From: Naegleria gruberi
Taxonomy: Eukaryota
Length of the DNA: 64,000 nt
NCBI GenBank assembly: GCA_000004985.1
Contig: GG738850.1
Reading direction: 5' to 3' (one strand)
Part shown: piece after piece, positions 1,668 to 52,787 of the stretch
How the letters are laid out: each line of letters begins with the position of its first letter
Numbering within the stretch: the first letter of the stretch is position 1
Position numbers and translations under genes: made by a program
Notes under the pieces: generated by a model
Database searches by the model: none
What the model saw: the letters and a program-made list of their open reading frames with translations, nothing else
Told to the model about the DNA's origin: nothing

Positions 1668-1785
1668 GACTACAGCACCACAGGTTCCCAAGTTGTCTCC
1701 AACCTCAGTACTGATGTGGCTCGACGATGCTTAACTTCTCAAATCGGACGGGATGAGGTGCATTCATCGTGATATGGCCGTAGCC
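1668..1785 (-). rRNA. 5S ribosomal RNA
   Basis: Reverse complement reads ggctacggccatatcacgatgaatgcacctcatcccgtccgatttgagaagttaagcatcgtcgagccacatcagtactgaggttggagacaacttgggaacctgtggtgctgtagtc followed by TTTT. The 5'/3' ends pair as 5S helix I, and the sequence aligns with yeast/human 5S internal motifs (CCGTCCGAT, AAGTTAAGC, GGGAA, TGCTGTAG). It differs from the copy at 52669 by 1 nt. Confidence 0.85.
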
Positions 1786-2325
1786 ATTCATAACCCTAAA
1801 ACAATGAATGTAAAGAATATTGAAAATCTTAAACTCCATATTTAAGAAATTACAAATCTTCTTCTCGATATTTTGTGGAGGTTTGTACCACTTACAGAAC
1901 CTCCAAATGGTCCAATGGTGGGATAAATTGGATCAAATCTATTTAAAATTAGATCCTTTGTCAACAGAGCTGTTTTTCTATACATTGGCTTGTTTTAGTT
2001 CAATAAATAATGATATTTTATATGGCACAACAGGTCTAAAACAATATGAGCAAAAAGGCATGGGTGGAGTTACGCCACCAACACTTCAGAGAAATGAGCT
2101 GATCGTGATGTTAGAATTACACTACATGCCTCAAATTCAGTACTAGTTTGCAATCTCTCTTACCTTCAGATGGTTGAAAACATTCATTTCATTATGGTAT
2201 TATTCTTTCTTTAAAACCAACTCTGAAATGGAAGTTTCATGCTTCTATTAATAAATTAATGGGTTTGCTTGCCCAACAGACATTATACTAAGGAGAATTA
2301 AGGGCCCATACCCATCTTGATGTAA

Positions 2326-2396
2326 TCGGGTGTGGTATAGTGGTAGCATTCCAGACTGTCACTCTGGCGACCCGGGTTCAATTCCCGGCACTCGAG
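2326..2396 (+). tRNA. tRNA-Asp (anticodon GTC)
   Basis: A 71-nt cloverleaf: acceptor tcgggtg/cactcga (one G-U), D-arm gtat-agtggta-gcat, anticodon stem ccaga/tctgg with loop cTGTCac, and T-arm ccggg-ttcaatt-cccgg. It closely resembles metazoan and fungal tRNA-Asp. Confidence 0.85.
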
Positions 2397-2703
2397 AATA
2401 GTTTTTTGCTTTATCTCCAGGATTTGAGTTTTAATTTTTTCATAGTAGCAGGTATGATATGTAGTCGAGCTAATTACCATTTTTCAAAGTTTCATCTCTT
2501 AAAACCACCGAGAAAATAATCAAAGATTATATACTTTCATTTTTTTTAAAAATATTCCAAGTTCTTTTCAGCTGCCTGCAGTTCCATGCCTTAATTTCAT
2601 TTACATTAAACTTGTTAATTAAATATTATATATTTATTAATATTTAATTAACACAATATATTTACAACGGATTTCAATGAAACTAGCAAACTACCTATTT
2701 CAA

Positions 2704-52200: not shown

Positions 52201-52550
52201 AGAATTCTATCCTAGCACCTCCCAAGTTTGGTTTCCTTTCAAGAAGAAAAGGATTCTTTGGTGGTATGGGATTACTCAAACTTTTGAAATCCGATGAATT
52301 CAGAGACCATGCTGTAAAAAATTTATTCCTGCTTTCTCAAAATTCTCGATTACTTTATGCACTAATGTGCGAAATGGTTCGGTTAGATTTGAGAAATGAC
52401 ATTACGTATCAAATAATAGTCAACCAATTCAAGGAAATGTTAGATGATAACGATACTTTTAAAAAGTGTCAGCATGCAGTTGATAAGTTTATTAAGGAAG
52501 GAACAAATCTACTTAACACCGATTTTATTCACATGCTAAGACATGATTGA
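49263..52550 (+). CDS. leucine-rich-repeat protein with C-terminal PI3K/PI4K-like catalytic domain (catalytic motifs degenerate - probable pseudokinase)
   Basis: A 1095-aa ORF. The N-terminal half is RNI-type LRRs ('LQILNLENNLLTLNGL', 'LTSLDLSFNKITENGI'). The C-terminal 'AFHAIFAMTLKIRDLHNDNIGINEEGFLSLYDKNS...LLYALMCEMVRLDL' aligns to PI3K '[21 protein letters not shown]...HIDFG...LFALMRAAGL'. DRH is replaced by DLH and DFG by YDK. Confidence 0.55.
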   Translation: MRSRELSREECFSILQFEPSLFSLMTGRLICKNFYEACVLLQLRIKFKTRKEILAFAKLLDRRILKKVVEISAKNCDLEDDDMQIIGSMFDNLQILNLENNLLTLNGLHCLEGSGIVNSLRVINIRGNQGSLDIDVFKNLKILECEKVDKPKKIHQLEALTTSSISNQIVESLPHLKHITITRGKIGAWDSLSKLSNLETLSLQCAIGNNVSIFKNLKKLLIQHVSLTIETVETIAKNLDHVESLKLLYIAIQGDDIITTLCNLKVTERVKTLHLVANNISDVGVDFLISNSNLEKLTSLDLSFNKITENGIRSITCTSKLTNLRKLSLKRSKGSLYLGHFMNSHLKNLTSLNIKSEDHAFEGIDDFLLSPFAKKLQKCRIFSKDIPKWRFSRKINILKENEASVDTLLQFMLDRPSIENSIGINHELPDTIRNVNDHFRVLLNYIDNLLPSHLGFHPSGRIMIVIEAEICYGTTIIEKCSETFSCDYSMSINCNHYFNFAKRLVELPLESVLKIKIFVLKLSSMGKKQVAHSITPIFNRNGKHINGIIQNAMHSSFTPKEFKMMTTFDKYDDCVGPFEGDLAELHELSNSKELPSNFEELLTKKVLTDEEKNMIWSLRKIIPKTHLGLRVLMESFPFMNQHALEYMRNQIRELVNTFSNPCQYLELLGEPFIDTEIRDLAYKAINQMTDSQLFNSMNIIIELLACEMELDNPLSQILLNRGLNNVDIGRHLFWCIQGNLHNSSIRGKLAWLAVQFLNNITHERLLEFYNQCLYIYQIEEIDLNIKETPRINLSTHTELLVQRVSELAFPTPFILPYPPYSSVQRIIAEKTSLTDSRNRAVIITYESNGKTGQLLMISRENKVDSYMSSTLRILSDMWNSTYPNEERTFVQGSVIPIDNDICIYEKASQSLYEIQGSNLSRISDPSSWIEIGNNQFPNFERNLLRSYAFHAIFAMTLKIRDLHNDNIGINEEGFLSLYDKNSILAPPKFGFLSRRKGFFGGMGLLKLLKSDEFRDHAVKNLFLLSQNSRLLYALMCEMVRLDLRNDITYQIIVNQFKEMLDDNDTFKKCQHAVDKFIKEGTNLLNTDFIHMLRHD

Positions 52551-52668
52551 GTAAACATAAACATATCACTCACATTTTGATGGAATAATATTGGATAAAT
52601 TACACAAGGCAATTACAATTTATAAATATTCATAGATAGCTCATTAACTTAATTTTGATATCTTGGAT

Positions 52669-52787
52669 GGCTACGGCCATATCACGATGAATGCACCTCA
52701 TCCCGTCCGATTTGAGAAGTTAAGCATCGTAGAGCCACATCAGTACTGAGGTTGGAGACAACTTGGGAACCTGTGGTGCTGTAGTCT
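52669..52787 (+). rRNA. 5S ribosomal RNA
   Basis: ggctacggccatatcacgatgaatgcacctcatcccgtccgatttgagaagttaagcatcgtagagccacatcagtactgaggttggagacaacttgggaacctgtggtgctgtagtc, 119 nt, followed by a TTTT Pol III terminator. It is identical to the minus-strand copy at 1668-1785 except for one substitution. Confidence 0.85.

What the first reader, a model, noticed from the sequence alone, without database searches (positions are those of the whole stretch)
1668..52787. Dispersed 5S rRNA genes: two near-identical copies in inverted orientation 51 kb apart, plus a 5S 5'-fragment relic
The 5S genes at 1668-1785 (minus) and 52669-52787 (plus) are 119 nt, differ at a single position (cgtCgagcc versus cgtAgagcc) and each end in a T-run. 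Their flanks are unrelated apart from about 10 nt immediately upstream (tgNatggctacgg), so only the gene itself is duplicated. This is the dispersed arrangement, not an rDNA-linked or tandem one. A third, truncated 5S-like piece at 9601-9634 (5' about 33 nt, about 85% identity, minus strand) looks like a decayed copy or a 5S-derived retroposed fragment. Inverted identical repeats 51 kb apart are potential substrates for inversion by ectopic recombination. All Pol III genes here (2x 5S and 4 tRNAs) sit in short spacers at the 3' ends of Pol II genes.
Basis: seen in the sequence. Interest (0 to 1): 0.5.

Follow-up and report, generated by a model that had tools for sequence, protein, structure and literature searches.

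The report
Dispersed Naegleria 5S rRNA genes, catalogued
The window, from the amoeba Naegleria gruberi, holds two intact 5S ribosomal RNA genes and one dead 33-base stub; they belong to a scattered family of about 280 copies that was already listed in a 2012 paper, so the finding is real but ordinary.

Summary
Infernal finds two full-length 5S rRNA genes, at 1667-1785 (-) with 105.4 bits and at 52669-52787 (+) with 106.5 bits, against a gathering score of 38. Each is 119 nt. They differ only at position 63 (C versus A), which is an unpaired bulge. Their flanks are unrelated and each ends in a T4 run. The 5' fragment at 9601-9633 (-) is also real: 28/33 identity, then random, and no shuffle out of 200 reaches its score. 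It lacks the internal promoter, so it is a dead relic. The window is Naegleria gruberi, JGI scaffold_6:192,001-256,000. Both genes are rows R33880 and R33597 in Table S1 of Feng et al. 2012 (PMC3369914), which lists 279 putative 5S loci on 117 scaffolds with a median gap of 34 kb. Naegleria keeps 18S/5.8S/28S on an extrachromosomal circle without 5S, so chromosomal, unlinked 5S genes are expected. Dispersed 5S families with truncated pseudogenes are long known from Neurospora and other ascomycetes. The inversion idea could not be tested. The retroposition reading of the fragment finds no support. The claim that all Pol III genes sit at 3' ends of genes is only partly true. Two weak leads remain open: a closely related strain may lack copy A, and the 5S elements lie close to tRNA genes. 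Verdict: already known, low interest.

The parts
1667..1785 (-). 5S rRNA gene copy A (119 nt, C at position 63). It equals row R33880, scaffold_6:193666-193782, of Feng et al. 2012 Table S1, in the modal similarity class.
   Evidence: RF00001 at 105.4 bits, full length; sequence; mapping to the table.
1664..1667 (-). T4 run (TTTT on the minus strand, counting the last base of the gene), a Pol III terminator-like signal for copy A.
   Evidence: Read directly from the sequence.
52669..52787 (+). 5S rRNA gene copy B (119 nt, A at position 63, the derived minority variant). It equals row R33597, scaffold_6:244672-244788.
   Evidence: RF00001 at 106.5 bits, full length; sequence; mapping to the table.
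52787..52790 (+). T4 run, a Pol III terminator-like signal for copy B.
   Evidence: Read directly from the sequence.
9601..9633 (-). 5S 5' fragment covering positions 1-33 (28/33 identical). It has no box A or box C, and similarity breaks sharply after position 33. It is a truncated, non-functional relic lying between two divergently oriented ORFs.
   Evidence: blastn E 3e-4, 0/200 shuffles, 22/86 identity beyond position 33; ORF context.
2326..2396 (+). tRNA-Asp (GTC), 540 nt from 5S copy A.
10672..10744 (-). tRNA-Phe (GAA), about 1 kb from the 5S fragment.
49114..49206 (+). tRNA-Cys (GCA) with a 17-nt intron.
   Evidence: Rfam tRNA, 54.7 bits; aragorn -i.
53719..53801 (-). tRNA-Leu (TAA), about 0.9 kb from 5S copy B.

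Best explanation
These are two ordinary members of the dispersed nuclear 5S rRNA gene family of Naegleria gruberi, which has about 260-280 copies. Each copy most likely works as a self-contained RNA polymerase III unit. It carries its promoter inside the gene (a box A match at +50 and a box C-like match at +80), starts at a purine preceded by a pyrimidine, and stops at a T4 run right after the gene. Such a unit can work in any intergenic spacer, which would explain why only the gene itself is shared between loci. Naegleria's 18S/5.8S/28S genes sit on a roughly 4,000-copy extrachromosomal circle that carries no 5S, so 5S has to be supplied from the chromosomes. The near-identity of the two copies most likely reflects purifying selection, possibly helped by gene conversion. 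The single difference lies at an unpaired bulge and at a degenerate box A position, so it should be neutral. The 33-nt piece at 9.6 kb is a dead 5' remnant of a former copy, left by a deletion or rearrangement whose breakpoint fell inside the gene; it lacks the internal promoter. Shown here: the identity, structure and copy differences of the genes, their terminator and ICR motifs, the organism, the genome-wide dispersal and the statistical reality of the fragment. Inferred: transcription by Pol III, the cause of sequence homogeneity and the origin of the fragment.
For: RF00001 gives full-length matches at 106.5 and 105.4 bits. The consensus fold has 39 pairs, 11 of them with compensatory double changes against the diverged environmental 5S L006, and position 63 is unpaired. 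Box A matches exactly at +50 and box C matches at +80 with 2 mismatches, using the consensus quoted in PMC3369914. T4 runs follow both genes. The organism is N. gruberi by a 100% match of 6PGD, the 2OG-Fe(II) oxygenase protein and the PI3K-like protein to NCBI N. gruberi proteins on a 707,703-bp contig. Both genes map base for base to rows of the published Table S1, which holds 279 loci on 117 scaffolds with a median gap of 33.8 kb and no regular arrays. The extrachromosomal circle encodes only 5.8S, 18S and 28S (PMC5805870). 5S genes are reported on the nuclear genome of N. fowleri (PMC6831594). C63 is shared by copy A, L005 and L006, so A63 in copy B is the derived state.
Against: No expression data were available, so the activity of either copy, especially the A63 variant, is inferred. 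The intermediate element does not match at the canonical +67-72. Feng et al. found no TFIIIA in N. gruberi, so the promoter may not be a classical type 1. No consistently placed TATA box is seen in the three flanks available. A 99.4%-identical environmental strain (L001) diverges 19 nt before copy A and shows no 5S there. This hints at turnover not covered by a purely static picture.
Confidence: 0.9

Rival explanations
1. The 5S copies are still mobile or turning over. Copy A would be a recent insertion, RNA-mediated or otherwise, that is polymorphic between near-identical strains, and the 33-nt fragment would be a scar of such events.
For: Metagenome contig L001, from a strain 99.4% identical, is colinear with the window to 1624 and again over 1625-1648, and then shows 126 unrelated bases where the window has the spacer and copy A. 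No 5S is found in it. An 8-nt direct repeat, TTATGAAT / TTATGACT, abuts copy A with a null p of about 0.015. N. lovaniensis has no 5S near the orthologue of the 778-aa gene.
Against: L001's tail does not match the sequence on the far side of copy A, so this is not a clean empty site; it could be a rearranged spacer or a short-read chimera. The TSD-like signal is absent at copy B (6/8, p 0.11) and at L005 (4/8). Synteny with N. lovaniensis is broken on both sides of that gene anyway. There is no poly-A tail.
Confidence: 0.1
2. One copy, most likely copy B with the minority A63, is a silent pseudogene despite being intact.
For: A63 is derived relative to copy A, L005 and L006. In the published table copy B falls in a minority similarity class (40 rows at 0.742 against 161 at 0.75).
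Against: The change is at an unpaired bulge and at a degenerate box A position. Copy B scores slightly higher than copy A against RF00001. Its terminator is intact.
Confidence: 0.1
3. The 9.6-kb fragment is a chance match, or part of a 5S-derived SINE or retroposed copy, rather than a truncated gene relic.
For: It is only 33 nt long, and Infernal does not report it. An A-rich stretch, AAACATAAAG, follows it.
Against: None of 200 shuffles reaches its score, and the blastn E-value is 3e-4. It starts exactly at 5S position 1 in the same T|G context. It lacks box A and box C, which every 5S-derived SINE head retains. It has no true poly-A. Its surroundings are not repeated in the window. It retains the 5' end, whereas LINE-mediated copies are typically 5'-truncated (established knowledge).
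Confidence: 0.05
4. The two copies are an assembly artefact, either a collapsed or a mis-joined repeat.
For: Dispersed 119-nt repeats can break or mis-join short-read assemblies. L001 ends close to the 5S.
Against: Each copy is embedded in unique sequence with intact long ORFs on both sides. The window comes from a 707,703-bp contig. Window 17-35 kb, between the copies, is colinear with N. lovaniensis.
Confidence: 0.02

Closest known systems
The N. gruberi 5S catalogue of Feng et al. 2012 (PLoS One 7:e36878, PMC3369914, Table S1)
   Same: These are the same genes. Rows R33880 (scaffold_6:193666-193782) and R33597 (scaffold_6:244672-244788) are copies A and B if the window is scaffold_6:192,001-256,000. 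That paper also reported an ICR, a TATA box, T-run terminators and no linkage to rDNA.
   Different: The paper's summary table marks the arrangement as 'tandem', whereas its own coordinates show dispersal with loose clusters. It gives no strands, and it does not list the 33-nt fragment.
Dispersed 5S rRNA genes of Neurospora crassa (Selker et al. 1981) and Schizosaccharomyces pombe (Mao et al. 1982), as cited in PMC5555474
   Same: Many single 5S genes are scattered through the genome. Each has unrelated flanks, is unlinked to the large rDNA, and is transcribed independently by Pol III.
   Different: The lineage differs (Heterolobosea, not fungi). In addition, the large rDNA here is not chromosomal at all but sits on an extrachromosomal circle.
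Truncated 5S pseudogenes of filamentous ascomycetes (Rooney and Ward 2005, birth-and-death evolution, as cited in PMC5555474)
   Same: These are 5S-derived pieces lacking an intact coding sequence that coexist with functional dispersed copies. The published Naegleria table also has about 20 partial entries of 80-112 nt.
   Different: The piece here is much shorter, at 33 nt. Its origin and age are unknown, and no family of similar truncations has been shown.
5S-derived retroelements (Cassandra TRIMs, bioRxiv 10.1101/2023.07.14.548913; 5S-derived SINEs, from own knowledge)
   Same: They contain 5S-like sequence outside bona fide 5S genes.
   Different: Those elements keep the 5S internal promoter and occur as repeat families with LTRs or LINE-like tails. 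The fragment here has no ICR, no tail and no repeated flanks.

Membership tests
5S rRNA (Rfam RF00001) | Covariance-model score above the gathering threshold over the full model. | tested here: met
   106.5 and 105.4 bits against 38, model positions 1-120.
5S rRNA (Rfam RF00001) | Three-way-junction secondary structure supported by compensatory changes. | tested here: met
   39 pairs, 11 with double compensatory changes against L006. Only four sequences were available, three of them nearly identical.
Eukaryotic Pol III type 1 gene | Internal control region: box A near +50, intermediate element near +67, box C near +80. | tested here: inconclusive
   Box A matches exactly at +50 and box C matches at +80 with 2 mismatches, but the IE does not match at +67-72. 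No TFIIIA was found in N. gruberi by Feng et al..
Eukaryotic Pol III type 1 gene | A run of four or more Ts as terminator directly after the gene. | tested here: met
   TCTTTT at the end of both copies and of L005.
Eukaryotic Pol III type 1 gene | Actual transcription by Pol III and incorporation of the RNA into ribosomes. | not testable with these tools
   No expression or ChIP data were available.
Dispersed (unlinked, non-tandem) 5S arrangement | No linkage to the 18S-5.8S-28S unit. | tested here: met
   No other rRNA was found in the window. The rDNA is on the extrachromosomal circle, which encodes only 5.8S, 18S and 28S (PMC5805870).
Dispersed (unlinked, non-tandem) 5S arrangement | Copies are not in head-to-tail arrays, and their flanks are unrelated. 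| tested here: met
   The copies are 51 kb apart, inverted, with unrelated flanks. Genome-wide there are 117 scaffolds, a median gap of 33.8 kb and no equal-spacing runs, although 23 gaps are under 3 kb against 3-6 expected, which indicates loose clusters.
Truncated 5S pseudogene | Significant similarity to part of the 5S gene, with the coding sequence and promoter incomplete. | tested here: met
   28/33 identity, 0/200 shuffles, random beyond position 33, and no box A or box C.
Retroposed 5S copy or 5S-derived SINE | Poly-A or LINE-like tail, target-site duplication, retained ICR and multiple copies. | tested here: not met
   The fragment has no poly-A, no ICR and flanks that are unique in the window. 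For the full copies the TSD test is not significant overall. Genome-wide copy number of the fragment could not be tested.

The most novel reading that the evidence does not exclude
5S genes in Naegleria would be an actively turning-over, possibly mobile Pol III gene family. On this reading copy A is an insertion polymorphism between strains that are 99.4% identical, flanked by a 7/8 target-site-like repeat. New copies would land preferentially near tRNA genes, and the 33-nt stub would be a scar of such turnover.
Probability: 0.08. Interest if true: 0.45.

Novelty: already known. Interest (0 to 1): 0.1.

Why it matters
It matters little as a discovery. Both genes are already listed in a published catalogue, and dispersed 5S families with truncated pseudogenes have been textbook cases since Neurospora in 1981. 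Three small points have some value. First, the published coordinates show the N. gruberi family is dispersed with loose clusters, not 'tandem' as that paper's summary table says. Second, statements in the CERE literature that Naegleria has 'no rRNA genes in the nuclear DNA' overlook about 280 chromosomal 5S genes. Third, about 260 near-identical 119-bp repeats scattered over the chromosomes would be a convenient natural system for asking how dispersed gene families stay homogeneous and whether they seed rearrangements. That would need whole-genome, multi-strain data, not this window.

Tried and rejected
- Yeast origin. I first assumed a yeast because of the compact, intron-poor ORFs. Pfam content and the 6PGD search showed the organism is Naegleria gruberi.
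- Orthologous-site test in other Naegleria species. N. lovaniensis is colinear with window 17-35 kb, but that stretch holds no 5S site. The orthologue of the 778-aa gene between copy A and the fragment has entirely different neighbours and no 5S or tRNA. The PI3K-like gene next to copy B had no orthologue in the search. So the age of the sites could not be determined.
- Exact-protein look-ups to recover the N. gruberi contig or other strains at the Hsp70-like gene, 6PGD, the PI3K-like gene, the 167-aa ORF and the 242-aa ORF all returned nothing.
- Collection scans with a 33-nt 5S core. Metagenomes gave only two loci. Viral and prokaryotic genome collections gave none. That is too few flanks to define an upstream promoter motif.
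- TSD or retroposition signature. It was tested against a null model and was not significant overall.
- Fixed upstream TATA box. None is seen at a consistent position in the three flanks.
- Link between the synteny breakpoint and the fragment. I rejected this because synteny is broken on both sides of the gene.
- Further decayed 5S sequence after the fragment. There is none: identity is 22/86 and there is no Infernal hit.
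Full report
**Observation**

An Rfam gathering-threshold scan of the whole window gives exactly six hits. Two are full-length 5S rRNA genes: 52669-52787 on the plus strand at 106.5 bits, and 1667-1785 on the minus strand at 105.4 bits. The gathering score is 38 and both cover model positions 1-120. The other four are tRNA genes.

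The two 5S genes are each 119 nt and differ at one position, number 63, which is C in copy A and A in copy B. Aligning 300 nt of flank on each side shows no similarity outside the gene. The exceptions are TGAAT versus TGGAT at -5 to -1 and the T-run that follows the gene. Both genes end in TCTTTT.

**The fragment**

On the minus strand, window 9633 to 9601 matches 5S positions 1-33 at 28/33. Counting the T that precedes the gene, the match is 29/34. Identity over the following 86 positions is 22/86, which is random. The blastn E-value within the window is 3e-4. None of 200 first-order Markov shuffles of the window reaches its 34.4 bits; the maximum was 30.7. Infernal in E-value mode does not report it, which is expected for 33 nt.

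The fragment lies in the 464-bp gap between two divergently oriented ORFs, 6962-9298 (-) and 9762-10661 (+). Its surroundings are not repeated anywhere else in the window. It has no poly-A tail. It contains none of the internal promoter, since box A starts at +50. It carries A at position 24, like the environmental copies L005 and L006, whereas both full copies in the window have T. That is weakly compatible with descent from an older variant.

**Organism and location**

The gene content did not look like yeast. The 6-phosphogluconate dehydrogenase ORF is 100% identical to the NCBI Naegleria gruberi protein on a 707,703-bp contig. Next best are N. fowleri at 90% and N. lovaniensis and Willaertia at 84%. 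Two further ORFs are also 100% identical to N. gruberi proteins on the same contig.

Feng et al. 2012 (PMC3369914) searched the JGI N. gruberi assembly and reported 279 putative 5S genes, not located with rDNA units. Their Table S1 contains scaffold_6:193666-193782 and scaffold_6:244672-244788. If the window is scaffold_6:192,001-256,000, these are copies A and B. The match is exact once the paper's convention is applied, which starts the gene at T4 and adds one T at the 3' end. The one-step difference in the table's 'similarity' values (0.75 versus 0.742) fits the single-base difference between the copies. So both genes are already catalogued.

**Genome-wide arrangement**

I re-analysed the published coordinates.
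- The 279 rows fall on 117 scaffolds, and 259 rows are at least 114 nt long.
- The median gap between neighbouring copies on a scaffold is 33.8 kb and the minimum is 363 bp.
- No runs of equal spacing exist, so there are no regular tandem arrays.
- 23 gaps are under 3 kb, where a Poisson model with a 41-Mb genome (size from my own knowledge of Fritz-Laylin et al. 2010) expects 3-6.

The family is therefore dispersed with loose small clusters. The 'tandem: Y' entry in that paper's summary table is not borne out by its own data. Two copies in a 64-kb window is not unusual, since 0.44 are expected and P(2 or more) is 0.07. A 51-kb spacing is typical.

**Why 5S is unlinked here**

Naegleria carries single copies of 5.8S, 18S and 28S on 3,000-5,000 copies of a closed circular extrachromosomal element (PMC5805870; other CERE papers). 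That element does not list a 5S gene. The N. fowleri genome paper reports 5S rRNAs on the nuclear genome (PMC6831594). Chromosomal, rDNA-unlinked 5S genes are thus the expected state in this genus. [quoted passage not shown]

**How the genes most likely work**

- The consensus fold of copies A and B with two environmental relatives has 39 pairs. Eleven of them carry compensatory double changes in the diverged L006 sequence.
- Position 63 is an unpaired bulge.
- Using the ICR consensus quoted by Feng et al., box A matches exactly at +50 and box C matches at +80 with two mismatches. The intermediate element does not match at +67-72.
- Position 63 is a degenerate box A position.
- Each gene starts at G preceded by T and ends in a T4 run.

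Together these features describe a self-contained Pol III unit that can function wherever it lies, which would explain why only the gene itself is shared between loci. This step is inferred, since no expression data were available. Feng et al. found no TFIIIA in N. gruberi, so the factor that reads the ICR is unknown. C63 is shared by copy A, L005 and L006, so A63 in copy B is the derived minority state.

**Flanks**

Only three N. gruberi-type flanks were available: copy A, copy B and L005. They share T(-5), A(-2) and T(-1) and the T-run, but no TATA box at a fixed position. An 8-nt direct repeat abuts copy A (TTATGAAT, then the gene, then TTATGACT). It has a per-locus null probability of about 0.015. 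Copy B gives only 6/8 (p 0.11) and L005 only 4/8, so there is no convincing target-site-duplication signal.

**Comparative tests**

- N. lovaniensis is colinear with window 25.7-34.6 kb and probably with about 17-18 kb. That 22-kb locus has no 5S or tRNA gene.
- The N. lovaniensis orthologue of the 778-aa gene, which lies between copy A and the fragment, sits on another contig. It has completely different neighbours and no 5S or tRNA gene in 22 kb.
- The gene next to copy B had no orthologue in the search.

So neither the age of the sites nor the inversion hypothesis could be tested.

**A possible strain difference at copy A**

One lead remains. A metagenome contig, L001, comes from a strain 99.4% identical to the window. 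It is colinear with the window up to 1624, carries a 20-nt insertion, and matches again over 1625-1648. It then has 126 unrelated bases where the window has the 15-nt spacer and copy A, and it contains no 5S. Its tail does not match the far side of copy A either. This is therefore not a clean empty site. It could be a rearranged spacer, a presence/absence polymorphism inside a larger difference, or a short-read chimera.

**Location relative to protein-coding genes**

Five of the six Pol III genes lie 11-147 nt after a stop codon. However, 5S-A, 5S-B and tRNA-Cys are also upstream of the next gene's start, and tRNA-Asp is 430 nt upstream of the Hsp70-like ORF. ORFs of at least 120 aa cover about 78% of the window, so short spacers are the only place such genes can sit. 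All three 5S elements lie 0.6-1.06 kb from a tRNA gene. Against an intergenic-only null this gives p of about 0.03, which is suggestive at most.

**Comparison with what is known**

Dispersed 5S genes were described in Neurospora crassa in 1981 and in S. pombe in 1982. Truncated 5S pseudogenes in filamentous ascomycetes were described under a birth-and-death model; all are cited in PMC5555474. 5S-derived retroelements such as Cassandra keep the internal promoter, and the fragment here does not.

**Verdict**

The finding is real and correctly interpreted in its core. It is an already catalogued, ordinary feature of the N. gruberi genome. Interest is low. The only open and mildly novel possibility is ongoing turnover or mobility of 5S copies, which I rate at under 10%.

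Noticed in passing
window 1596-1790; L001 2836-2999: A metagenome contig (ENA ERZ929261 k127_573283), from a strain 99.4% identical to the window, is colinear to 1624. It has a 20-nt insertion, lacks the ATTCAT at 1639-1644, and after CCAG (1645-1648) continues with 126 unrelated bases where the window has 5S copy A. No 5S is found in it. This may be a presence/absence polymorphism, a rearranged spacer or a chimera.
   Followed up: partly
window 1656-1666 and 1786-1793 (minus-strand flanks of 5S copy A): An 8-nt direct repeat abuts copy A on both sides (TTATGAAT upstream, TTATGACT after the first extra T). The null probability is about 0.015 per locus, but the pattern is not reproduced at copy B (6/8) or at L005 (4/8).
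   Followed up: yes
window 1667-2396, 9601-10744, 52669-53801: Each 5S element, including the fragment, lies 0.6-1.06 kb from a tRNA gene (Asp, Phe and Leu respectively). Against random placement in intergenic space, p is about 0.03. This may reflect co-location of Pol III genes, or only that large spacers hold both.
   Followed up: partly
window 2613-2653 and about 2696-2725: Two near-perfect palindromes of about 41 nt and about 24 nt lie in the spacer between tRNA-Asp and the Hsp70-like ORF (blastn self-hits on the opposite strand).
   Followed up: no
window 49114-49206 (+): The fourth tRNA is tRNA-Cys(GCA) with a 17-nt intron. Default ARAGORN missed it; Rfam and aragorn -i found it. It sits in a 220-bp spacer, 57 nt upstream of the PI3K-like ORF start.
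   Followed up: yes
Published data (PMC3369914 Table S1; PMC5805870): The summary table of Feng et al. calls the N. gruberi 5S genes 'tandem', but the paper's own coordinates show 117 scaffolds, a median gap of 34 kb and no regular arrays. There is only an excess of gaps under 3 kb (23 against 3-6 expected). [quoted passage not shown]
   Followed up: yes
L003 (N. lovaniensis PYSW02000014.1:597378-619265) and L004 (PYSW02000032.1:75564-97312): 44 kb of N. lovaniensis sequence, partly orthologous to the window, contains no 5S and no tRNA gene, against 2 + 4 in 64 kb here. The 778-aa 2OG-Fe(II)/WD40 gene has entirely different neighbours in the two species.
   Followed up: partly
L006 244-362 (-) (metagenome contig LLBY010927159.1): This is an environmental 5S gene (98.8 bits) that shares the exact 33-nt helix III core with N. 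gruberi but is diverged elsewhere, with 11 compensatory pair changes. It sits in GC-rich flanks and its T-run lies 9 nt downstream. It is probably from another heterolobosean.
   Followed up: partly
scaffold_6:271664-271762 (about 15.7 kb beyond the window's right end, from the published table): The published list has a partial 99-nt 5S entry (similarity 0.633) close to this window, and about 20 partial entries genome-wide. Truncated 5S copies are therefore a recurrent feature of this genome.
   Followed up: no
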